Assembly: GCF_900766055.1 (NCBI RefSeq)
Contig: NZ_CAAFTZ010000002.1
Source: an uncultured Parasutterella sp.
GTDB taxonomy: Bacteria > Pseudomonadota > Gammaproteobacteria > Burkholderiales > Burkholderiaceae_F
DNA length: 64,000 nucleotides
Reading direction: 5' to 3' (one strand)
Under the pieces are notes generated by a model that ran no database searches, was not told the origin of the DNA, and worked only from the letters and a program-made list of their open reading frames with translations. Both the position numbers and the translations under genes were made by a program. Positions 4,118 to 44,449 of this stretch are shown here, piece after piece (the stretch's first letter is position 1; each line of letters opens with the position of its first letter).

Positions 4118-4194
4118 TGGCTCCCCGAGTTGGACTTGAACCAACGACCTGCGGATTAACAGTCCGTCGCTCTACCGACTGAGCTATCGGGGAA
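4118..4194 (-). tRNA. tRNA-Asn (anticodon GTT)
   Basis: reverse complement folds as a cloverleaf; anticodon loop CTGTTAA; near-identical to E. coli tRNA-Asn; CCA encoded. Confidence 0.9.
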
Positions 4195-4254
4195 TCGTGA
4201 AATTGTCGTTTTCTCTGAGAAAACAAAACCGCTTTCGCGGCTCTAATTTTTGAT

Positions 4255-4331
4255 TGGCTCCCCGAGTTGGACTTGAACCAACGACCTGCGGATTAACAGT
4301 CCGTCGCTCTACCGACTGAGCTATCGGGGAA
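4255..4331 (-). tRNA. tRNA-Asn (anticodon GTT), second copy
   Basis: identical 77-nt sequence to the first copy, 60-nt spacer. Confidence 0.9.
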
Positions 4332-5878: not shown

Positions 5879-7189
5879 TCAAGCTTCGTTGTTGGCGAAT
5901 CTAGGTGCAATCAGTCCCCAAAGCGTCCACCCGAGGAATGTGGCTAAAGAGCCGTAGAAAACTTCTGTGATTCCGGTAGAGAAGAGTGCGTAGAAGCTGT
6001 AGATGGCGCCGATGATTGCAATGACGTTGTAAAGTTTGGCCTTGGAGGGATCCACTTTTGCGACTTTCATGATGACGGCAACAGCAGCCATTGACAGCAG
6101 ATAAGGCATGATATTGGTGACTACGGCGAGGTCTACCAACCGGTTGAATTGTTTGAACAGTTCGGGGCTAATCGTCATGAAACAAAAGCCGGTTTGAATG
6201 GCCGTAATGATGATCATGCCAAGTACCGGAGCTTTCCATTTGTTGACTTTAGCAAAGCACTTCGGGAAGAAACCGTCGATTGCAGACTGCTGAAATACCT
6301 TAGCAATCGTGAACTGCCAACCCAGAGTAGAGCCTGCGCAGGAAAGAACAAGGAGGAAAGTGACGATCTTGCCGATGGTAGAGTTGAACATCATGGTAAA
6401 GGTCAGGCCGAAGGGAGCATTTGATTTAACCAACTCGGCATTCGGAACGATACCCGCGATGATATTGGTGGAGACAATATAGATAATAGCAACACCAATG
6501 GTAGCGGCCAGCACGGCAATAGGAACATTCTTCTCGGGATTGTCAACGGCATCACTGTTGGCACAGGCGCTCTCAAGTCCCAAGAAGGCCCATAGCGTCA
6601 TAGAGATTGAAGCCCCGACAGCGGAGAAGAAAGGTTCGTTGTGCGGATTCCAGGCTTCGACATACATCGTAGGACTGAACCAGAACCAGCCGATAACGGT
6701 TAAAAGCAACACGGGAAGGATGACGCACCAAACGGCTAAGGCACTAAATTTTCCGGTGAGCGAGGCCCCCATAAAGTTTGCGGACGTACAGATCCAAAGT
6801 ACGACGATCGTAGAAAGGCAAACTTGAACCGGGGTTAGTTCAATTTCCAAAAATTCGGCTCCATAGCCGACACAGGTAATCGCGATAGCGATGTTGGCAA
6901 AAAGAAGCGAAACACCATAAGTGTAGTTAGCCATGAAGTTGCCGGCTTTGCCGAAGGCATATTCAGAATAGCCGCCCATACCCGGACGTTTACTAAACAT
7001 GCCGCACTTGGCAAAGGCATAGGCTAAACACAAGGAGCCCACGGCAGTGATGAGCCAGGAAAGAATAGAAATTGTTCCAATTTCAGCCAGTTTGGTCGGC
7101 AGCATGACGATGCCGGAGCCCATCATATTAATAGCAGTGAGAAGAGTCAGCTGAGTGACTGACATCTTGGTACGGTTTTGCTGAGACAT
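5879..7189 (-). CDS. potE: putrescine-ornithine antiporter (APC family, PotE-like)
   Basis: 436 aa, near-collinear with E. coli PotE (MSxxxxxKMxVxQLTxLTxxNMMGSGIxMLPTKLAE...); lies directly downstream of the decarboxylase gene. Confidence 0.8.
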   Translation of the reverse strand: MSQQNRTKMSVTQLTLLTAINMMGSGIVMLPTKLAEIGTISILSWLITAVGSLCLAYAFAKCGMFSKRPGMGGYSEYAFGKAGNFMANYTYGVSLLFANIAIAITCVGYGAEFLEIELTPVQVCLSTIVVLWICTSANFMGASLTGKFSALAVWCVILPVLLLTVIGWFWFSPTMYVEAWNPHNEPFFSAVGASISMTLWAFLGLESACANSDAVDNPEKNVPIAVLAATIGVAIIYIVSTNIIAGIVPNAELVKSNAPFGLTFTMMFNSTIGKIVTFLLVLSCAGSTLGWQFTIAKVFQQSAIDGFFPKCFAKVNKWKAPVLGMIIITAIQTGFCFMTISPELFKQFNRLVDLAVVTNIMPYLLSMAAVAVIMKVAKVDPSKAKLYNVIAIIGAIYSFYALFSTGITEVFYGSLATFLGWTLWGLIAPRFANNEA

Positions 7190-7256: not shown

Positions 7257-9452
7257 TTATTTACCTTTAGCAGTCAGACGTTCGACAGCATCTTCTTTTA
7301 GTACATAGCAGTAAACTTGTTTACCGCCCCTGCCGTTGTCTTCGACATAAACACCTTGAAGTTCGGGTGCAAATCCAGGCATCCGTCCCATGGCTTCCTG
7401 CCAAGCTAAGAAATACTTGAGCACGGGCCCGCCCCAAACTTCACCCGGGAAGCAGCACAAGACTCCCGGTGGGTAGGGCAGAGCGCCTTCAGCAGCAACT
7501 CTTCCTTCTGCATCTTCCAGACGGACGAGCTCGGCTTGGCCGCGCAGGAATGCAAAGTGGGCTTCTTGAGGATTAATGACGCTCTTGGGCATGAATTCGG
7601 TGCGGAACATTTCCTTTTGAATCTCTTTAATATTCCGCTCCTTGTAGAAGTCATGCATTTCTTGGCAGAGCTGACGGATGGAATAGTTGCGGTAGCGAGA
7701 TTCGTAAGCTTTGTAAAGATTGGGCAGCACCTCTTCTAAGGGAGCGTCATCATCGAGGTATTTTTCAAAGCGAGCGATCTGGCTAACCAGGTGATCCATT
7801 TTTTCTTTATTTTCTGCGGGAGTCATGAGGAAAAGAATGGAATTGAGGTCGTTCTTTTCGGGGATGATGCCGTTATCGCGCAAGTAATTAGCCAAAATCG
7901 TTGCCGGAACGCCAAAATCTTCGTATTCGCCGGTCTCAACATTGATGCCCGGAGTCGTCAGCATAAATTTGCAGGGATCTACAAAATATTGGTTCTCCCC
8001 ATACCCTTCGAAAGAATGCCATTTCTGACCCGGAACAAATTTGAAGAATTCCAGGTCTTGGGCAATCAAATCTGTTGGGTAAGATTTCCAATCGGAGCCG
8101 CGAACTTTAGAAGGAATAAACGGTTTGATGTAGTGACAGGTTTCAAGCAGTAATTTGCGAGCATCAATAACTGTCTTAACGCAGTCAGCCCAAAGTCTCC
8201 TGCCGGCTTCTCCTTCTTGGATTTTTGCGTTGACGTCCAAGGATGCAAACAGCGGGTAGAACGGACTGGTTGATGCATGCATCATGAAGGCGTTATTCAA
8301 CACTTTGTGAGGAATATAACGGTCTTGTCCCTTAATGTGAGAGTCTTTTTTGTGAATTTGTGAAGTCTGAGAAAAACCTGCTTGCTGCTTATGAACGGAC
8401 TGAGTGACGAAGATGCCGGGGTCTTCCGGTCCTAACTCGAGAAGAAGCGGGGAACAGTCACGCATCATTGGAATGAATTGTTCGTAGCCTACCCATGCGG
8501 AGTCGAAGAGGATGTAATCACAAAGGTGACCGATTTTGTCCACAACTTGTCGAGCGTTATAAATCGTGCCGTCATAAGTGCCGAGTTGGATGACTGCAAG
8601 ACGGAAGGGACGCTTGGCATCCGCTTTTTCAGGACATTTTTCTCTAACTAGGCTGCGGAGATACTCTTCGTCAAAACATTTTTCGTCAATGCCGCCGATA
8701 AATCCGAAGGGGTTGCGGGCAGTTTCAAGATAAATCGGAGTAGCGCCGGCTTGCAACAGAGCTCCGTGGTTAATTGACTTGTGGTTATTTCGATCATACA
8801 AAACCAAGTCACCGGGAGTTAAAGCCGCATTTAATACAACTTTGTTAGAGGCGGAGGTTCCGTTCAAAACGAAATAAGTCTTATCGGCATTGAATACCTT
8901 AGCGGCAGCTTTTTGAGCGGTTAGCGGTGCACCTTCATGAATTAAAAGGTCGCCCATCGCAACGTCAGCATTGCAAAGGTCAGAGCGGAAAAGCTCTTCA
9001 CCGAAAAAGTCATAGAATGCGCGGCCGGCCGGATGGCGGCGGAAGTATGCGCCTCCCTGATGTCCCGGGCAGTCAAACTGGGACTTTCCTTTGTATACGT
9101 ATTGGGCGAGGGCACCGAAGAAAGGAGGAAGGAGCTTGTCTTCGTAGCGTTTGGCAGCTTCATCGATTTGACGGCCGAAAAGACGTCTGTCTGTGAGGTC
9201 ATCGTTGATCACACCGACCACGTGACCGACGAGTTCTTCAGGAGTGGTGTCTTCATCGCGGAGATAAAGAAAAACGGGGATTTCCAAGGCGGTGGCATTA
9301 ACCTTGTTTAATCCGCCTTTCCGATAGTCTTCAATGTCGATAACAACAGCGGAGACTTCAGTAAAGTCAGCATTTGAGAGGCAAACGACTTCACGTTCAA
9401 CCTGAAGTTTATCTTTTAGTAGTGCAGAAGCTGCGACTTTAAGTTTTTGCAT
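7257..9452 (-). CDS. speF: ornithine decarboxylase, inducible type (SpeF/SpeC family)
   Basis: 731 aa, strongly collinear with E. coli ornithine decarboxylase (FxCPGHQxGAxF, KVFxADKTYFVLNGTSAxNKVV, EGALPYPPGVLC); operon order decarboxylase then antiporter as in speF-potE; SD GGAGGA. Confidence 0.85.
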   Translation of the reverse strand: MQKLKVAASALLKDKLQVEREVVCLSNADFTEVSAVVIDIEDYRKGGLNKVNATALEIPVFLYLRDEDTTPEELVGHVVGVINDDLTDRRLFGRQIDEAAKRYEDKLLPPFFGALAQYVYKGKSQFDCPGHQGGAYFRRHPAGRAFYDFFGEELFRSDLCNADVAMGDLLIHEGAPLTAQKAAAKVFNADKTYFVLNGTSASNKVVLNAALTPGDLVLYDRNNHKSINHGALLQAGATPIYLETARNPFGFIGGIDEKCFDEEYLRSLVREKCPEKADAKRPFRLAVIQLGTYDGTIYNARQVVDKIGHLCDYILFDSAWVGYEQFIPMMRDCSPLLLELGPEDPGIFVTQSVHKQQAGFSQTSQIHKKDSHIKGQDRYIPHKVLNNAFMMHASTSPFYPLFASLDVNAKIQEGEAGRRLWADCVKTVIDARKLLLETCHYIKPFIPSKVRGSDWKSYPTDLIAQDLEFFKFVPGQKWHSFEGYGENQYFVDPCKFMLTTPGINVETGEYEDFGVPATILANYLRDNGIIPEKNDLNSILFLMTPAENKEKMDHLVSQIARFEKYLDDDAPLEEVLPNLYKAYESRYRNYSIRQLCQEMHDFYKERNIKEIQKEMFRTEFMPKSVINPQEAHFAFLRGQAELVRLEDAEGRVAAEGALPYPPGVLCCFPGEVWGGPVLKYFLAWQEAMGRMPGFAPELQGVYVEDNGRGGKQVYCYVLKEDAVERLTAKGK

Positions 9453-9644
9453 AATAATAGTCCTCCGGATTTATTTAATAAGGTGAATAAATCCGCAACA
9501 TAATTAAATGAATTGTGGGTTGGCTTTTCTCGGCAATAAAACCCCCTGAACAAGCGCTAAAAAGGCTTGAGCACTGAGAGACTTCGCGGAAGAAATTTAG
9601 AGAAAAGCAATTCGAGCCGAACCGATAAAGAATCGGCCGGAGGA

Positions 9645-9770
9645 CTAGATGTCGGATTCGGAGAGGAACTTATTGAAGGAGAAGCAATCACGCATCGTAA
9701 ACCGCGTGAGGTGTAACGTGCGGCGCATGCCTATATTGAATAGGCACTTGCCAATGTTAAATATACACAT
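9645..9770 (-). CDS. speFL: putative SpeFL-like leader/arrest peptide upstream of speF (core MRRTLHLTRFTMRDCFSFNKFLSESDI; start codon ambiguous: 9728, 9770 or 9791)
   Basis: small same-strand ORF 193 nt upstream of speF; core aligns without gaps to E. coli SpeFL (HIRRTTHIMKFAHRNSFDFHFF, recalled from memory). Confidence 0.4.
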   Translation of the reverse strand: MCIFNIGKCLFNIGMRRTLHLTRFTMRDCFSFNKFLSESDI

Positions 9771-10375
9771 AGCAGTAATCCCAATTGTCATGTCTGTCAA
9801 ACAACAGACATAAGCATTCTGACAGTAAAATTTCTAGAAGTCAATAGATTGTTACGAAATTTAGAGAAGATGAAAATTCTTATAAATTAGCTAGTTAGCA
9901 AAAAATAAACTCAAAATGGGATTCTATAATTAGAGGGGTTGACGATAATGGTTGATAAATATTAAACAAAGATTAAATTTGGAATAGAGAGGATTTTTTA
10001 AGGATATATCCTTCTAGAAAGTTAAGGAGTTGTTTCAGACCGATGTTTTACTTTTTCCGAAAACGAACCTCATCAGCTTATGTAATGTGCTAACTTTTAT
10101 TCTATTCCGAGAGCGTCCAGCCAAGGGTGATTTTATAAATTTGAATTATTGATATTTAAATCACCCTGCGTGCTTAAGAAAAATAAGGTGCCGAAGCTTA
10201 ATTGAGGGGGGTTGGTTTGAAAGTGAACTGAGAATGGATGTGTCCTTAGAACTCATCTAAAGCAGAGAAGACTGACGTCGAGGTAATCTGACCAGATCGG
10301 ATGATCGGAAAACCGATGTCTTAGGATTCGTTCTAAACTTTTCAAATTCAAAGGATTCTTTAGGCAGACACCACC

Positions 10376-12430
10376 TTGAAAATCATCAGATTCCCCAATT
10401 CTCCGTTTGAACTGCATCAGCCATTTGAGGCGGCCGGAGATCAGCCTCAGGCAATCAAAGAACTCGTCGAAGGTATTGAGGACGGCCTGACGGCCCAGAC
10501 GCTGCTTGGCGTGACGGGCAGCGGCAAAACCTACACCATGGCGAACGTTATCGCCCGAACCGGGCTGCCGACGCTCATCATGGCGCCGAATAAAACCCTT
10601 GCCGCTCAGCTCTACGCGGAAATGAGGGACTTTTTCCCAAACAACGCGGTGGAGTATTTCGTCAGTTACTACGACTACTATCAGCCCGAAGCTTACGTCC
10701 CTCAGCGGGATCTGTTTATTGAAAAAGATTCTGCCATCAATGAACACATCGAGCAGATGCGTCTGTCGGCTTCAAAGAGCGTGCTCGAACGCCGTGATGT
10801 GATCATTGTCGCGACCGTGTCTGCCATCTACGGTATCGGTAAGCCGGAGTCCTATACCGAGATGCGTCTTATCCTGAAAGTCGGTGACAAGATTGAACAG
10901 CGCGACTTGATCTCGCACTTGGTCCGCATCCAGTACGAACGCAACGACATGGAATTTACGCGAGGTAAGTTCCGCGTCCGCGGTGACACGATTGACGTGT
11001 TTCCGGCCGAACACTCGGAAATGGCACTCCGTATCGAACTCTTCGATGACGAAATCGAAGCAATGTATTTCTTCGATCCGCTGACCGGTAAAACACGCCA
11101 GAAGGTAGACCGCTTCGCGATCTATCCGACGTCTAACTATGTCACGCCGAGAAACGATATTCTCCGAGCGATTGAAGCTATCAAGGATGAGCTCAGAGAC
11201 CAGGAGGCAAAATTCATCGAGAGCGGCAGGCTGCTTGAGGCGCAGCGCATCCGCGAAAGAACGCTCTTTGACTTAGAAATGCTCCACGAAGTGGGCTTCT
11301 GCAAAGGCATTGAGAACTACAGCCGCCACTTGGCCGGTGGTCTGCCCGGAGAGCCGCCTCCTACCTTGATCGACTATCTGCCGAAAGATGCGCTGATGTT
11401 CTTCGACGAATCTCACGTTCTGTTAGGTCAGATCGGCGGTATGTACCGCGGCGACAGTGCCAGAAAAGAAACCCTCGTCACCTACGGCTTCCGTCTTCCG
11501 AGCGCTAAAGACAATCGTCCGCTTCGTTTTGACGAATTCGAAAGCAAGATGCGCCGAGCGATCTTTGTCTCGGCCACTCCTGCAGACTACGAGCTGAATC
11601 ATTCTTCTCAGATCGTGGAGCAGGTGGTGCGCCCGACCGGCCTCGTGGACCCGGAAGTAGAAGTACGCCCGGCTACGACCCAGGTTGACGATGTGCTCGG
11701 CGAAATCAAAGAAAGAATTCCGAAGGGCCAGCGCATTCTGATTACAACGCTGACCAAGCGCATGGCAGAAGACTTAACCGACTTCCTGCAGGACAACGAT
11801 ATCAAGGTTCGTTACCTGCACTCGGACATCGATACGGTGGAACGCGTAGAAATTATTCGAGACCTTCGTGCCGGTGTCTTCGATGTTCTGATCGGCATTA
11901 ACTTACTGAGAGAAGGCTTGGATATTCCGGAAGTGGCACTGGTCGCGATCTTAGATGCTGATAAGGAAGGCTTCCTGCGAAGCGAACGTTCTCTCATTCA
12001 GACGATCGGCCGTGCCGCGCGAAACGTTGAAGGCAAAGCCATTCTATACGCTGATACGATTACGGACTCCATGCGCCGAGCGATGGACGAAACGGCTCGA
12101 CGCAGAGAAAAGCAGACTGCTTACAACGTGGCGCATAACATCACGCCGAAGAGCGTCAAGAAAGAAATCCGTGACATTATTGACGGTGTCTACAAGAGCG
12201 ATAACCTCGAAAATGAATTCGGACTGGTGGACGGTCAGGATTACGAAAAAATGGGTCCGAAGGAACTGGCACGCGAAATCAAACGGCTCGAAAACGAAAT
12301 GTTTGAGCATGCTAAGAATCTCGAATTCGAAAAAGCCTCGGAAGTCCGTGATAAATTGGCTTCAATTCGTAAACAAGTTTTCGGCGCAACGCCCGGAAAA
12401 GATGAGGAAGGCGCAAAAGAGAACGTATAG
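10376..12430 (+). CDS. uvrB: excinuclease ABC subunit B
   Basis: 684 aa, collinear with E. coli UvrB (GDQPx[10 protein letters not shown], helicase motifs, C-terminal UvrB/C interaction domain); apparent TTG start. Confidence 0.9.
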
Positions 12431-33332: not shown

Positions 33333-33409
33333 AGGCACGTAGCTCAGCTGGTTAGAGCATCACCTTGACATGGTGGGGGTCGTTGGTTCGAGTCCAATCG
33401 TGCCTACCA
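33333..33409 (+). tRNA. tRNA-Val (anticodon GAC)
   Basis: cloverleaf with acceptor AGGCACG/CGTGCCT, anticodon loop TTGACAT, CCA encoded; candidate TTGCAC-17-TATAGT promoter upstream. Confidence 0.9.
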
Positions 33410-33463
33410 AAACTTCTTGTTCTGGTTTGAAGAAGCTGTCTCGCTTTAAGAGACGACAATTTT

Positions 33464-33540
33464 AGGCACATAGCTCAGCTGGTTAGAGCATCACCTTGAC
33501 ATGGTGGGGGTCGTTGGTTCGAGTCCAATTGTGCCTACCA
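33464..33540 (+). tRNA. tRNA-Val (anticodon GAC), second copy
   Basis: differs at one acceptor/T-arm base pair (compensatory change), 54-nt spacer. Confidence 0.9.
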
Positions 33541-41131: not shown

Positions 41132-43543
41132 ATGTTATTTTCAGAAGAGTGGCTGCGCCATTACATCAATCCTGCCCTCAGCAGCGATGAGCTGTGCGAA
41201 ACCCTGACGATGGGCGGCCTGGAAATCGAAGGCGCAGAACCGATTGCGCCGGCCTTCACCGGTGTGGTCGTTGCTCAGGTATTGACCTGCGAACAGCACC
41301 CGAATGCAGACAAACTGCATGTCTGCACGGTGGATATCGGTAAAGAGGAACCTGTGCAAATCGTCTGTGGTGCTCCGAACGTTAAAGCCGGAGTCAAGGT
41401 TCCGTGCGCCACGATCGGCGCCGTGCTTCCGGGCGACTTTAAGATTAAAAAAGCCAAACTCCGCGGTGTCGAGAGCAACGGTATGCTTTGCTCCAGCAGA
41501 GAATTAGGCATCAGCGAAGATCATTCCGGTCTGTGGATTCTTCCGGAAGACGCTCCTGTCGGTGAAGACATTCGCGTTTACGAACGTCTTGACGACAAGA
41601 AGATTGAAGTCAAAGCAACTCCGAACCGCGGTGACGCTTTAAGCGTGATCGGTGTTGGCCGTGATTTGAGAGCGCTGACTGGTGCCGAGCTTTCCCTCCC
41701 GGATTTCTCTCCGGTTCCGGCTACCTGCGACTGCGTTCACGAAGTGCGCAATGAAGCTCCGAATCTTTGCGGACGCTTTGCCGGCCGCGTGGTCTGCGGC
41801 GTCAATGCCAAAGCCCCGACTCCGCAGTGGATGAAGGACCGTCTGGAGCGTTCCGGCCAGCGTTCGATTTCTGCGCTGGTGGACATCTCCAACTACGTGA
41901 TGCTGGAACTTGGCCGTCCGACTCATATTTTTGACCTTGATAAGCTTGGCGGTCCGCTGACCGTTCGCTGGGCTAAAGAAGGCGAGAAGGCTGAACTGCT
42001 GAATGGTCAGACCGTCGATATTGATCCGTATTTCGGCGTGATTAGTGACAACAACGGTATTGAAGCGATTGCCGGCATCATGGGCGGCGATCATGCCGCC
42101 GTCTCGCTGAACACGAAGAATGTATTCATTGAAGCGGCTTTCTGGTGGCCAAAAGCTATTCAGGGCCGCTGCAGAAAATTAAATTTCTCGACGGACGCTG
42201 CATACCGCTTTGAACGCGGCGTGGATTTCCAGTCCAATGTGGACCACATGGAATACATCACTCGTCTGATTCTTGAGATTTGCGGTACCGCAGAAACCAA
42301 GGTCGGTCCGGTTGTCGACGAAATCGAAGAGCTGCCGGTTCGCGAACCCGTTCGCATGAGAGCAGACCGCTGCAGAAAAGTTATCGGTGCCGATATCTCT
42401 GACGACAAAATGGCCGAGTGCTTCACTCGTTTAGGCTTCTCCTTCAAGAAGGAAGGAGGCACTTTCGTAGTGGACGTTCCGAGCTATCGTTTTGACATCG
42501 AGATTGAAGAAGATTTGATTGAAGAAGTCGCTCGTCTCTACGGCTATCAGAACCTGACGGAAATTCCTCCGCTGGCTCGCGTAGCCATGCTCGAACGTCC
42601 GGAAGCGAAACTCGATCGCCACGAACTTCGCAAGAAGATGGCCGGTTTAGGATTCCAGGAACTAATTAACTATTCCTTCATCAGTGAGGAAGCCGAAGCA
42701 GACTTTGCCGAAGTTAAGGATCCGATTAAAGTTTTGAATCCGATCGCTTCCCAGATGGCTGTCATGAGAACACAGCTGATCTCCGGCTTGGTGGATCGTC
42801 TTAAGTACAACCTCAATCGTAAAGCCGACAGAGCAGCCTTGTTTGAATTAGGTCGTATCTTCAGGCGTGATCCCTCCGTTAAGGGCTCCGACGCTGCCGT
42901 TGAAGGCGTGTATCAGCCGCTGCATCTTGCCGCTCTGGTATACGGCTCGGCTCGCCCGGCTCAGTGGGGAGAGAAGGCTAGAAACTTTGACTTCTTCGAC
43001 TTGAAGGGTGCGGTTGAGATGCTGCTTCCGGGCCGCAATCTCCGCTTTGAAAAATCCAATCATCCGGCACTTCATCCGGGACGCGCTGCCACCGTTTATC
43101 TCGACGGTGAAGAGATTGGATTTATCGGCGAACTGCATCCTGAGCTTGCTCATAAGTACGAGCTGCCGCACTCTCCGATTGTCTTCGAACTCAAGGAAGA
43201 AGCCCTTTTGGATGTCGGGGTTCCGGTTAACCGCAGCTTGTCTAAGTTCCAGCCGATGTCTCGCGATATTGCTGTCTTCATTGACGATGCCGTGCCGGTT
43301 CAGAAACTGATGGACGCCGTGCGAAAGGCCGCGAAGAAAGATCTGCGCCTGCTGAGTTTGTCATCTTTTAAACTCTTTGATCTTTACAAACCTCAGGATA
43401 GTGCTAATGTAGGGAAGAAGAGCCTTGCGTTTAATATGTTGCTTCAGCGCCCGGATGCACAGCTTTCTGAAGAAGAGGCTGACGAGGCCGTGGCGGCTGT
43501 GGTAGAAGCCCTCGGTAAAGAGGGTGCAGTCTTGAGAGATTAA
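41132..43543 (+). CDS. pheT: phenylalanine--tRNA ligase beta subunit
   Basis: 803 aa, tRNA-binding N-terminus, B3/4, B5 and FDX-ACB domains. Confidence 0.9.
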   Translation: MLFSEEWLRHYINPALSSDELCETLTMGGLEIEGAEPIAPAFTGVVVAQVLTCEQHPNADKLHVCTVDIGKEEPVQIVCGAPNVKAGVKVPCATIGAVLPGDFKIKKAKLRGVESNGMLCSSRELGISEDHSGLWILPEDAPVGEDIRVYERLDDKKIEVKATPNRGDALSVIGVGRDLRALTGAELSLPDFSPVPATCDCVHEVRNEAPNLCGRFAGRVVCGVNAKAPTPQWMKDRLERSGQRSISALVDISNYVMLELGRPTHIFDLDKLGGPLTVRWAKEGEKAELLNGQTVDIDPYFGVISDNNGIEAIAGIMGGDHAAVSLNTKNVFIEAAFWWPKAIQGRCRKLNFSTDAAYRFERGVDFQSNVDHMEYITRLILEICGTAETKVGPVVDEIEELPVREPVRMRADRCRKVIGADISDDKMAECFTRLGFSFKKEGGTFVVDVPSYRFDIEIEEDLIEEVARLYGYQNLTEIPPLARVAMLERPEAKLDRHELRKKMAGLGFQELINYSFISEEAEADFAEVKDPIKVLNPIASQMAVMRTQLISGLVDRLKYNLNRKADRAALFELGRIFRRDPSVKGSDAAVEGVYQPLHLAALVYGSARPAQWGEKARNFDFFDLKGAVEMLLPGRNLRFEKSNHPALHPGRAATVYLDGEEIGFIGELHPELAHKYELPHSPIVFELKEEALLDVGVPVNRSLSKFQPMSRDIAVFIDDAVPVQKLMDAVRKAAKKDLRLLSLSSFKLFDLYKPQDSANVGKKSLAFNMLLQRPDAQLSEEEADEAVAAVVEALGKEGAVLRD

Positions 43544-44371: not shown

Positions 44372-44449
<78 letters not shown>

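What the first reader, a model, noticed from the sequence alone, without database searches (positions are those of the whole stretch)
9645..9791. Unannotated SpeFL-like ornithine-sensing leader peptide upstream of speF
A short ORF lies on the same strand 193 nt upstream of the ornithine decarboxylase gene. Its hand-verified minus-strand core is MRRTLHLTRFTMRDCFSFNKFLSESDI* (9728 to 9645), with in-frame upstream AUGs at 9770 and 9791. It aligns without gaps to the E. coli SpeFL arrest peptide as I recall it (MENNSRTMPHIRRTTHIMKFAHRNSFDFHFFNAR): RRTLH against RRTTH (the HIRRxxH ornithine-binding motif), LTRFTM against IMKFAH, and RDCFSFNKF against RNSFDFHFF. SpeFL stalls the ribosome in response to ornithine and relieves Rho-dependent termination. 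A homolog here would imply the same metabolite-sensing nascent-chain switch controls speF-potE in this lineage, with a divergent C-terminus and a different stop context. The start codon is ambiguous and none of the three candidates has a strong SD.
Basis: partly seen in the sequence, partly recalled or inferred. Interest (0 to 1): 0.68.

Follow-up and report, generated by a model that had tools for sequence, protein, structure and literature searches.

The report
Divergent SpeFL leader peptide before speF
A 41-codon upstream reading frame in this gut Parasutterella genome is a real, strongly conserved, divergent relative of the E. coli ornithine-sensing leader peptide SpeFL. It probably switches the ornithine decarboxylase/antiporter operon on by parking a ribosome on a sequence that otherwise blocks the speF ribosome-binding site.

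Summary
The ORF is real. Comparison fixes its start at ATG 9770, giving 41 aa (9770..9645, minus strand) 192 nt upstream of speF-potE. The window is from Sutterellaceae (beta-proteobacteria, Parasutterella); SpeFL has only been described in gamma-proteobacteria.

- **Homology:** a gamma-only SpeFL profile ranks this ORF first of 1,842 six-frame segments (E = 1.5e-5). Pfam's best hit is SpeFL, below threshold, and Sutterella relatives pass the threshold.
- **Selection:** the frame is under purifying selection (pN/pS 0.13; substitutions 34/32/164 by codon position). The peptide is invariant across about 20 leader haplotypes in human-gut metagenomes. The antisense ORF is broken in relatives.
- **Conserved residues (E. 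coli numbering):** R12, R13, H16, R23, F26, F31.
- **Differences from E. coli:** His10 is Gly, F30 is Lys, and the tail after F31 is 6 aa rather than 3. The Arg codons are common, and the N-terminus has a 7-aa tandem duplication.
- **New feature:** the stop codon plus 8 nt (UAGUCCUCCGG) is perfectly complementary to the speF ribosome-binding site. This pairing shows compensatory changes across relatives and parallels the proven Salmonella anti-SD.

Ornithine-dependent arrest and Rho involvement are inferred, not tested. Verdict: a new variant of a known kind, of moderate interest.

The parts
9816..9844 (-). Candidate sigma-70 promoter of the leader-speF-potE transcript: TTGACT, 17 nt, CAGAAT with an upstream TG. 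The predicted transcription start is near 9809, about 39 nt before ATG 9770.
   Evidence: Consensus scan. The -35 and -10 hexamers are conserved in the closest relative L001 (TTGACT ... CAAAAT). Function is not shown.
9645..9770 (-). Leader ORF of 41 codons plus TAG: MCIFNIGKCLFNIGMRRTLHLTRFTMRDCFSFNKFLSESDI*. This is the SpeFL-like peptide.
   Evidence: ORF list and sequence. The conserved start with a Shine-Dalgarno sequence in relatives. pN/pS 0.13 and substitutions 34/32/164 by codon position. Within-species constraint. Gamma-only SpeFL profile E = 1.5e-5. Pfam SpeFL is the top hit.
9711..9731 (-). Codons 14-20, G-M-R-R-T-L-H. This is the counterpart of the E. coli HIRRxxH ornithine-recognition loop, with His10 replaced by Gly and Ile11 by Met. 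The Arg codons are CGC CGC.
   Evidence: Alignments. R12, R13 and H16 are invariant across beta and gamma sequences. CGC is the commonest Arg codon in the window, at 43%.
9666..9701 (-). Codons 24-35, F-T-M-R-D-C-F-S-F-N-K-F. This is the counterpart of the E. coli effector domain F20...F31. F20, R23, F26, F28 and F31 are kept; F30 is Lys.
   Evidence: The roles of these residues in E. coli come from 10.1101/604074.
9648..9665 (-). Variable C-terminal tail L-S-E-S-D-I, 6 residues where E. coli has 3. Tails are 5-12 residues and rich in S/A/T/G across Sutterellaceae.
9721..9753 (-). Stable hairpin inside the ORF (codons 6-17). Its 3' strand carries AUG-15 and the two Arg codons. The rare codons CTA (L10) and ATA (I13) are held by stem pairing.
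   Evidence: Fold gives dG -17.2 kcal/mol, z = -4.1, with 0 of 200 shuffles as stable. The same codons are conserved in L001, L003 and L004. Rare-codon status. Function unknown.
9637..9647 (-). Anti-SD element UAGUCCUCCGG: the leader stop codon plus the next 8 nt.
   Evidence: It forms an 11-nt perfect complement to the speF RBS. It is the best partner of the RBS among 278 windows of the leader, at -21.5 kcal/mol. There are no polymorphisms in 14 columns across 20 haplotypes. Covariation is documented.
9458..9468 (-). speF Shine-Dalgarno arm CCGGAGGACUA. It ends 5 nt before the speF ATG (9452..9450) and pairs with the anti-SD.
9546..9725 (-). C-rich, G-poor tract spanning the 3' two-thirds of the ORF and the first ~100 nt of the spacer. 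It is a candidate Rho-utilisation region.
   Evidence: C/G counts per 60 nt are 19/12 to 20/9, similar to the E. coli-type leader L025. This is composition only; Rho dependence was not tested.
7257..9452 (-). speF, the inducible ornithine decarboxylase and regulated gene.
   Evidence: TIGR04301, 1393.8 bits against a cutoff of 1310.
5879..7189 (-). potE, the putrescine-ornithine antiporter and second gene of the operon.
   Evidence: NF007938, 707.9 bits; TIGR04299, 682.8 bits.

Best explanation
The 41-codon ORF 9770..9645 (-) is a translated cis-acting leader peptide homologous to SpeFL. It belongs to a Sutterellaceae (beta-proteobacterial) subfamily. The proposed mechanism has these steps:
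1. Transcription starts about 39 nt upstream of the ORF and the leader is translated.
2. Inside the exit tunnel, the conserved N-x-G-[MIL]-R-R-x-x-H segment and the F...R.CF.F..F segment act as sensor and effector, as in E. coli SpeFL. With L-ornithine bound, the ribosome arrests at or just before the leader stop codon.
3. Without arrest, the ribosome leaves. The stop codon plus 8 nt (UAGUCCUCCGG) then pairs with the speF Shine-Dalgarno region (CCGGAGGACUA) and blocks speF translation. The exposed C-rich leader probably also lets Rho terminate transcription.
4. An arrested ribosome physically covers the anti-SD and part of the C-rich tract, so the speF RBS stays free and speF-potE is expressed.

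What is shown here: the ORF, its homology, its selection, its conserved position, and the covarying anti-SD/SD helix. What is inferred: that the peptide arrests the ribosome, that the ligand is ornithine, where exactly the ribosome stops, and any role of Rho.
For: **Homology**
- Pfam's best hit is PF10940 SpeFL, and the only PDB hit is SpeFL 6tbv.
- A gamma-only profile gives E = 1.5e-5 and rank 1 of 1,842 segments.
- Sutterella homologues exceed Pfam's gathering score at 26-33 bits.
- R12, R13, H16, R23, F26 and F31 are invariant over beta and gamma sequences. These include the residues the SpeFL paper calls strictly conserved and essential.

**Position**
- A SpeFL-like ORF lies on the speF strand in 65 of 79 genome loci, and none on the opposite strand.
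- speF follows the ORF in 74 of 76 metagenome loci.

**Translation and selection**
- The ATG is conserved with a Shine-Dalgarno sequence in relatives.
- pN/pS is 0.13, against 1.9-2.7 in four of the five other frames. The fifth, the wobble-sharing antisense frame, scores 0.24 but has stops in 3 of 5 relatives.
- Within the species, ORF codon positions are 2.4/2.4/7.3% polymorphic, against 22-37% in flanking non-coding DNA.

**Anti-SD**
- It is an 11-nt perfect complement of the speF RBS and the best RBS partner in the leader for the window-type, T. muris-type and P. muris-type haplotypes.
- 77% of cells are paired, against 35-54% when the partner is slid. Six pairs carry compensatory changes (reached by 6 of 500 shuffles). 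The covariation score is 0.291 against 0.191 (reached by 1 of 500).
- The same scan recovers the published Salmonella/E. coli anti-SD at offset -23 as a positive control.
- Salmonella work proved by compensatory mutation that a CU-rich stretch at the end of orf34 sequesters the speF RBS (PMC6386406).

**Composition**
- The C>G composition resembles that of the E. coli leader.
Against: - His10 of the HIRRxxH loop is Gly (Val in some Sutterella). H10A abolishes arrest in E. coli.
- F30 is Lys. F30A impairs arrest in E. coli, although gamma species naturally carry L, R or I there.
- The stop codon is 6 residues after F31, not 3, and tails vary from 5 to 12 residues. The E. coli geometry (Asn32 displacing U2585 with residue 34 in the P site) therefore cannot be copied exactly.
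- The N-terminal segment is unrelated to that of E. coli, and deleting residues 1-7 kills arrest there.
- The two Arg codons are the commonest ones, so the rare-codon pacing proposed for enterobacteria is absent.
- The window peptide is below Pfam's gathering score.
- The anti-SD pairing is weak in the closest sister clade (L001/L113/L121).
- No experiment or expression data were available.
Confidence: 0.65

Rival explanations
1. The ORF is a SpeFL homologue, but here it works without ligand-specific arrest. Ordinary translation of the leader, or pausing at the two Arg codons when arginine or charged tRNA-Arg is scarce, transiently opens the anti-SD/SD helix and shields the transcript from Rho. 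In this reading speF output follows leader translation rate, not ornithine.
For: - Ben-Zvi et al. showed in Salmonella that orf34 translation alone relieves Rho termination and unfolds the RBS-sequestering helix, and that the RR codons mediate an arginine response.
- His10 and the E. coli N-terminal hairpin are missing here.
- A stable hairpin ends on the Arg codons and could itself pace the ribosome.
Against: - Selection preserves amino-acid identity at positions that have no role in simple transit: H16, R23, F26, F28, F31 and the N-x-G motif, with pN/pS 0.13.
- The Arg codons are the commonest in this genome.
Confidence: 0.15
2. It is a SpeFL-type arrest peptide whose altered sensor loop (N-I-G-M-R-R instead of M-P-H-I-R-R) recognises a ligand other than L-ornithine, or has a different affinity. 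Candidates are arginine, lysine, citrulline or a polyamine.
For: - The His10 position is G or V in all 14 Sutterellaceae genomes and H in all gamma sequences examined.
- The N-terminal half is unrelated to E. coli and carries a lineage-specific 7-aa duplication.
Against: - In the E. coli structure, ornithine contacts mainly 23S rRNA plus R13, with P9 and R12 lining the pocket. R12 and R13 are kept here.
- The regulated genes are still an ornithine decarboxylase and an ornithine/putrescine antiporter, so ornithine remains the logical signal.
Confidence: 0.1
3. The conserved block is an RNA element such as a riboswitch-like structure, or the ORF is a chance open frame. Alternatively the opposite-strand 54-aa ORF (9649..9813 +) is the real gene.
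For: - There are stable local hairpins inside the ORF.
- The 54-aa antisense ORF is open in the window and in L001.
Against: - Substitutions fall on third codon positions of the minus-strand frame (34/32/164) and pN/pS is 0.13.
- The antisense frame has stops in 3 of 5 relatives.
- No Rfam family matches, including the alphaproteobacterial speF element.
- The peptide-level profile match has E = 1.5e-5.
Confidence: 0.02

Closest known systems
E. coli SpeFL / Salmonella orf34 (Pfam PF10940, formerly DUF2618), the ornithine-sensing arrest peptide upstream of speF-potE
   Same: - It is a short ORF on the same strand directly upstream of speF-potE.
- R12, R13, H16, F20, R23, F26, F28 and F31 are conserved in an ungapped alignment.
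- The leader is C-rich.
- A CU-rich anti-SD next to the leader stop codon pairs with the speF RBS.
   Different: - The host is beta-proteobacterial (Sutterellaceae), whereas the family was described as gamma-proteobacterial.
- His10 is Gly, Ile11 is Met and F30 is Lys.
- There are 15 residues before the RR pair rather than 11, unrelated in sequence and including a 7-aa tandem duplication.
- The tail after F31 is 6 aa, not 3.
- The Arg codons are common, not rare.
- The anti-SD overlaps and follows the stop codon, rather than lying at codons 27-31.
- The spacer to speF is 192 nt, against 257 nt in E. coli.
Vibrio/Shewanella-type SpeFL (for example MKKKSKIMAHIRRTRHIMMPSHRDYFDYSFFTQSTSHL; Pfam score 54.5)
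   Same: It has a C-terminal extension of 7-8 residues beyond the F-core. A stop codon three residues after F31 is therefore not universal in the family.
   Different: These sequences keep His10 (AHIRR) and the gamma-type N-terminus. They have P in place of F20. No stop-adjacent anti-SD was detected in them.
TnaC, the tryptophan-sensing arrest peptide of the tna operon
   Same: The logic is the same: a leader peptide senses a free amino acid in the exit tunnel, arrests at its stop codon and blocks Rho access (as summarised).
   Different: There is no sequence similarity, the ligand differs, and no RBS-sequestering helix is involved.
Erm/Cat-type translational attenuation leaders (ErmCL and similar)
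   Same: A ribosome stalled on a leader ORF melts a helix that sequesters the downstream gene's Shine-Dalgarno sequence. This statement about ErmCL rests on established knowledge and was not tested here.
   Different: Those leaders respond to antibiotics bound to the ribosome. Here the anti-SD is the stop codon region itself, and the presumed signal is a metabolite.
Alphaproteobacterial speF 5' element (Rfam speF RNA motif)
   Same: It is a cis-regulatory element upstream of an ornithine decarboxylase gene.
   Different: It is an RNA motif without a leader peptide. No Rfam family, that one included, matched the window leader at E <= 10 apart from two chance-level hits.

Membership tests
SpeFL / orf34 leader peptides (PF10940) | A short ORF immediately upstream of speF, on the same strand and in the same transcription unit | tested here: met
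   The ORF is 9770..9645 (-), speF is 9452..7257 (-), and the spacer is 192 nt. The arrangement is the same in 74 of 76 metagenome loci.
SpeFL / orf34 leader peptides (PF10940) | Score at or above Pfam's gathering threshold (25 bits) for PF10940 | tested here: inconclusive
   The window peptide scores 14.3-15.0 bits (E 0.02-0.04), below threshold, but SpeFL is still the top hit of the library. The founding member, E. coli K-12 SpeFL, scores only 23.8. Sutterella homologues of the window peptide score 26.3-32.9 and Turicimonas 23.3. A gamma-only profile gives 21.2 bits, E = 1.5e-5, against the window's ORFs.
SpeFL / orf34 leader peptides (PF10940) | Strictly conserved consecutive arginines R12-R13, followed by H16 (the RRxxH part of HIRRxxH) | tested here: met
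   R16, R17 and H20 of the window peptide are invariant in the 20-sequence beta+gamma alignment.
SpeFL / orf34 leader peptides (PF10940) | His10 and Ile11 of the HIRRxxH ornithine-recognition loop (H10A and I11A abolish arrest in E. coli) | tested here: not met
   The window has Gly14-Met15. All Sutterellaceae have G or V at the His position and M, I or L at the Ile position. All gamma sequences examined have H. The requirement in E. coli is from 10.1101/604074.
SpeFL / orf34 leader peptides (PF10940) | Phenylalanine core of the effector domain: F20, F26 (strictly conserved), F28, F30 and F31 | tested here: met
   F24, F30, F32 and F35 correspond to E. coli F20, F26, F28 and F31. E. coli F30 is Lys34 here, but this position is also L, R or I in gamma species.
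SpeFL / orf34 leader peptides (PF10940) | Stop codon three residues after F31, giving arrest at termination with residue 34 in the P site | tested here: not met
   There are six residues (LSESDI) between F35 and TAG, and 5-12 in other Sutterellaceae. Vibrio and Shewanella members with high Pfam scores also have 7-8 residue tails, so this feature defines the enterobacterial subgroup rather than the whole family.
SpeFL / orf34 leader peptides (PF10940) | [quoted passage not shown] | tested here: not met
   The codons are CGC CGC. CGC accounts for 43% of Arg codons in 31 long ORFs of the window.
SpeFL / orf34 leader peptides (PF10940) | A CU-rich anti-SD at the 3' end of the leader ORF that sequesters the speF RBS (shown in Salmonella) | tested here: met
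   UAGUCCUCCGG pairs with CCGGAGGACUA at -21.5 kcal/mol, the best partner in the leader. Covariation supports the helix. It lies at and after the stop codon, not at codons 27-31.
SpeFL / orf34 leader peptides (PF10940) | Purifying selection on the peptide sequence | tested here: met
   pN/pS is 0.13 and substitutions are 34/32/164 by codon position. Within-species polymorphism is 1, 1 and 3 of 41 columns by codon position.
SpeFL / orf34 leader peptides (PF10940) | L-ornithine-dependent, puromycin-resistant ribosome arrest | not testable with these tools
   This needs toeprinting or in vitro translation.
SpeFL / orf34 leader peptides (PF10940) | Rho-dependent premature termination that is relieved by the arrest | not testable with these tools
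   Only composition could be examined. C/G reaches 20/9 per 60 nt, comparable to the E. coli-type leader. No convincing intrinsic terminator was found.

The most novel reading that the evidence does not exclude
Sutterellaceae carry a distinct SpeFL lineage that senses its ligand without His10 and without the E. coli N-terminal hairpin, and arrests with a longer, variable C-terminal tail. It would control speF mainly by translational attenuation, with the stop codon itself being part of the anti-SD, rather than by Rho. That would make it a natural second solution to ornithine capture in the ribosomal tunnel, possibly with altered ligand specificity.
Probability: 0.3. Interest if true: 0.6.

Novelty: new variant of a known kind. 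Interest (0 to 1): 0.42.

Why it matters
SpeFL is one of very few nascent peptides for which the capture of a small metabolite inside the ribosome is understood at atomic level, and it has been treated as a gamma-proteobacterial device.

This beta-proteobacterial lineage is under strong selection. It keeps R12, R13, H16, R23, F26 and F31. It replaces His10, which is essential in E. coli, changes the N-terminal half and changes the spacing to the stop codon. That gives a natural test of which contacts are really needed for sensing and arrest.

The stop-codon-embedded anti-SD gives a simple, testable read-out. The host, Parasutterella, is a common human-gut commensal, so the element is also relevant to how gut bacteria couple ornithine availability to putrescine production. 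It could also serve as an alternative part for ornithine biosensors.

Tried and rejected
- **NCBIfam.** It has no SpeFL model; even E. coli SpeFL gets no hit. The absence of a hit for the window peptide is therefore uninformative.
- **Rfam.** The leader gave only two chance-level hits and the whole window gave only tRNAs, so no known RNA element is present.
- **Second profile hit.** The hit at 41638..41504 (-) lies antisense inside pheT, matches only RSCFDF and lacks RRxxH. It was rejected as chance.
- **Terminator-like hairpins.** The hairpins at 9709..9688 and 9624..9608 have weak stems or interrupted T-runs, and the surrounding spacer is not alignable between relatives. They were not adopted as intrinsic terminators.
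- **Local hairpin after the stop.** It is no more stable than shuffled sequence (z = -0.5).
- **Alternative starts.** ATG 9791 and TTG 9800 are not conserved (ATA in L001) and would lie 8-19 nt from the predicted transcription start. ATG 9728 would remove the conserved N-x-G segment.
- **Rare Arg codons.** Not present.
- **Consensus folding of the whole leader.** Not attempted, because the spacer is essentially unalignable. A register-anchored two-arm alignment was used instead.
- **3D structure prediction.** Not run. An isolated 41-aa nascent chain has no meaningful free fold.
- **Divergent leader in other Sutterellaceae.** A search in loci without the ORF found nothing.
- **Literature.** No paper in the held library links SpeFL with Sutterellaceae or beta-proteobacteria.
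Full report
**Observation.** On the minus strand, an ORF ending in TAG at 9647..9645 encodes ...MRRTLHLTRFTMRDCFSFNKFLSESDI*. In-frame ATGs lie at 9728, 9770 and 9791, and a TTG at 9800. It lies 192 nt upstream of a gene that NCBIfam identifies as inducible ornithine decarboxylase SpeF (7257..9452, TIGR04301, 1393.8 bits). speF is followed by the putrescine-ornithine antiporter potE (5879..7189). uvrB is divergent upstream (10376..12430).

**Is the resemblance more than chance?**
- Against all of Pfam, the best hit of the peptide is PF10940 'Leader peptide SpeFL' (E 0.022-0.037, 14-15 bits). This is below the 25-bit gathering score, but E. coli K-12 SpeFL itself reaches only 23.8 bits.
- Against 177,635 PDB sequences the only hit is SpeFL, aligned without gaps.
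- I built a profile from 28 unique gamma-proteobacterial SpeFL peptides only and searched all 1,842 stop-to-stop segments in the six frames of the window. This ORF is the top hit (E = 1.5e-5).
- The runner-up lies antisense inside pheT and matches only six residues, so it is a chance hit.

**Where the window comes from.** The SpeF protein is 93% identical to Candidatus Parasutterella gallistercoris, 82-83% to Turicimonas and Parasutterella muris, about 70% to Sutterella species and 65-67% to Enterobacteriaceae. The exact leader peptide, together with a SpeF N-terminus 100% identical to the window's, occurs on about 30 human-gut metagenome contigs. Its 48-aa form is in NCBI nr as 'hypothetical protein [Parasutterella sp.]'. 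The host is therefore a Sutterellaceae beta-proteobacterium. Both SpeFL/orf34 papers describe the family as gamma-proteobacterial. No paper in the held library connects SpeFL with Sutterellaceae.

**Comparative evidence for the ORF.**
- In the 900 nt upstream of speF, a SpeFL-like ORF lies on the speF strand in 65 of 79 genome loci. The reverse strand gives nothing better than E = 0.2.
- Fourteen Sutterellaceae genomes carry it.
- Their peptides form a graded series to the curated family: five Sutterella peptides score 26.3-32.9 bits on PF10940, Turicimonas 23.3 and the window 15.
- In a 20-sequence beta+gamma alignment the invariant residues are, in E. coli numbering, R12, R13, H16, R23, F26 and F31. 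These include the residues that Herrero del Valle et al. found strictly conserved and essential.

**Start codon.** Only the ATG 15 codons before the RR pair (window 9770) is present in all five Parasutterella/Turicimonas genomes. It is preceded at a fixed distance by AGGA, AGGAG or GAGG in relatives and by GGGA in the window. The other Sutterella groups have ATGs with GGGGAGG or TAGGAGA. ATG 9791 is ATA in the closest relative. A promoter-like TTGACT-17-CAGAAT with an upstream TG (9844..9816) is conserved in that relative. It would place the transcription start about 39 nt before ATG 9770, leaving the 9791 and 9800 starts almost at the 5' end. The product is therefore the 41-aa peptide MCIFNIGKCLFNIGMRRTLHLTRFTMRDCFSFNKFLSESDI.

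**Selection.**
- Over the 35-codon core in five genomes, pS is 0.72 and pN is 0.095 (ratio 0.13). Differences fall 34/32/164 on codon positions 1/2/3.
- Four of the five other frames give ratios of 1.9-2.7 with stop codons in most or all of the genomes. The wobble-sharing antisense frame, which holds the 54-aa opposite-strand ORF, gives 0.24 but has stops in three of five genomes.
- In a leader alignment, the ORF is an island of conservation in otherwise almost unalignable non-coding DNA.
- Among 20 distinct leader haplotypes of the window's own species, polymorphic columns number 1, 1 and 3 of 41 for codon positions 1, 2 and 3. This is like speF itself (0, 0 and 6 of 101). The figures are 37% for the 60 nt upstream and 22% for the spacer, both with indels.
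- This excludes a chance ORF, a purely RNA-level element and the antisense ORF.

**How it differs from E. coli SpeFL.**
- The sensor loop reads N-I-G-M-R-R-T-L-H where E. coli has M-P-H-I-R-R-T-T-H. The His10 position is Gly or Val in every Sutterellaceae sequence and His in every gamma sequence. H10A abolishes arrest in E. coli.
- F30 is Lys. This position also varies in gamma species.
- The region before RR is unrelated in sequence. In the Parasutterella/Turicimonas clade it contains a tandem heptad duplication (CIFNIGK-CLFNIGM). One metagenome variant (L133) has a single copy, and Sutterella species have a single N-[IV]-G unit.
- After F31 there are six residues instead of three. Tails are 5-12 residues, rich in S/A/T/G and poorly conserved. 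Vibrio and Shewanella SpeFLs also have long tails.
- The Arg codons are CGC CGC, the commonest in this genome, so the rare-codon pacing proposed for enterobacteria is absent.

- The minimum-energy fold of the leader pairs the sequence that starts at the leader stop codon with the speF ribosome-binding site.
- UAGUCCUCCGG (9647..9637) is an 11-nt perfect complement of CCGGAGGACUA (9468..9458, ending 5 nt before the speF ATG).
- I scanned every 16-nt window of the leader for duplex stability with the RBS. The stop-adjacent window is the best of 278 (-21.5 kcal/mol against a median of -5.6).
- The same holds for P. muris and T. muris. It is near-best in L002 and L016 and weak in L001.
- The scan recovers, at offset -23, the E. 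coli/Salmonella pairing between speFL codons 27-31 and the speF RBS. Ben-Zvi et al. proved that pairing by disruptive and compensatory mutations and proposed that it doubles as the rut site.
- With metagenome haplotypes, 8 of 11 distinct anti-SD/SD combinations have the stop-adjacent segment as the best or near-best partner.
- I aligned the anti-SD arm at the stop codon and the SD arm at the SD core. In this alignment 76.9% of cells pair, against 35-54% when the partner is slid by 1-3 nt. Six of 11 pairs carry double-sided changes (expected 2.9; reached by 6 of 500 shuffles). The covariation score is 0.291 against 0.191 (reached by 1 of 500).
- Examples of compensatory changes are TAG to TAA paired with C to T in the SD flank (L142), and CUCC[G] to CUCU[G] paired with G to A (L134).
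- The caveats are that the sequences are related, the helix was derived from the window sequence, and I chose the register of the SD arm.
- Within the species, the stop codon and the 11 nt after it show no polymorphism.

**Most likely mechanism.**
1. The leader is translated.
2. If the nascent chain, probably with L-ornithine, arrests the ribosome at the end of the ORF, the ribosome covers the stop codon and roughly the next 10-12 nt. The anti-SD cannot then pair and speF-potE is translated.
3. If the ribosome terminates and leaves, the anti-SD sequesters the speF RBS. The C-rich, G-poor tract (C/G up to 20/9 per 60 nt, like the E. coli-type leader) is exposed for Rho.

The anti-SD is tied to the stop codon in clades with 5- and 6-residue tails alike. 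This argues that the relevant ribosome sits on the stop codon, as in E. coli, rather than three codons after F31. That point, the ligand and any Rho role are inferences. The rivals are:
- translation- or arginine-paced unfolding without ligand-specific arrest;
- altered ligand specificity because the sensor loop is changed;
- the now-contradicted RNA-only, chance or antisense readings.

**Comparison and novelty.** The element works like SpeFL/orf34 and is its homologue by profile similarity, synteny and a continuous chain of intermediates. It fails three features of the enterobacterial archetype: His10/Ile11, the three-residue spacing to the stop, and the rare Arg codons. Its anti-SD is placed differently. 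I therefore file it as a new variant (a beta-proteobacterial subfamily) of a known kind. It is not a plain new member and it is not something categorically new. Public annotation gives it no function. Interest is moderate. Its main value is as a natural variant for dissecting what ornithine capture in the tunnel really requires, and as a regulator of putrescine production in a common gut commensal.

Noticed in passing
window 9721..9753 (-): A very stable hairpin lies inside the leader ORF (dG -17.2 kcal/mol, z = -4.1). Its 3' strand contains AUG-15 and the two Arg codons. The third positions of the rare codons CTA (L10) and ATA (I13) pair within the stem, and these codons are conserved in L001, L003 and L004. 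It may pace the ribosome before the RR codons or hide the internal AUG. Its function is unknown.
   Followed up: partly
window 9729..9767 (-); L133:1501-1623: The N-terminus contains a 7-aa (21-nt) tandem duplication, CIFNIGK/CLFNIGM. One human-gut metagenome variant (L133) has only one copy (MCIFNIGMRR...), and Sutterella species have a single N-[IV]-G unit. The length of the segment before RR is therefore polymorphic.
   Followed up: partly
L003:2685-2807 (Turicimonas muris YL45): In the cultured strain YL45 the second, otherwise invariant arginine is Cys (MRCTRH), whereas metagenome relatives (L134-L136, L139) have RR. R13 substitutions abolish arrest in E. coli, so this strain may carry a defective sensor.
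   Followed up: no
L123 (metagenome) and protein P0004: These are stop-loss or frameshift variants of the leader with 12-13 extra C-terminal residues. P0004 is ...FSGTGRYSSAPAAFSPPGS, with TAG read as Y. Such variants would displace the stop codon from the anti-SD.
   Followed up: no
L005, L014, L015, L017-L019, L022, L030, L048, L061, L064: Sutterella wadsworthensis, Mesosutterella and several other Sutterellaceae have the SpeF-like decarboxylase but no detectable leader ORF. In several of them a same-strand upstream gene ends only 64-130 nt before it, so the operon context differs.
   Followed up: partly
L053, L055, L076 (Morganella, Plesiomonas, Shewanella) and Sutterellaceae loci: The post-stop context TA[AG]-TCC recurs after speFL in several gamma-proteobacteria as well as in Sutterellaceae, although no strong pairing with the speF RBS was found in those gamma loci. 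It may reflect a shared stop-context or rut requirement.
   Followed up: no
Pfam PF10940 model: The founding member, E. coli K-12 SpeFL, scores 23.8 bits. This is below the family's own 25-bit gathering score, whereas Vibrio SpeFL scores 54.5. NCBIfam has no SpeFL model at all. HMM-based annotation will therefore miss many true SpeFLs.
   Followed up: yes
window 41504..41638 (-): This segment lies antisense within pheT and contains RSCFDF. It gave a spurious SpeFL-profile hit (E = 0.0012). It has no RRxxH and no decarboxylase context.
   Followed up: yes
window 4121..4330 (-) and 33333..33537 (+): There are two pairs of tandem tRNA genes with near-identical Rfam scores within each pair, plus a single tRNA at 44373..44446. 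These are the only Rfam hits in the 64 kb.
   Followed up: no
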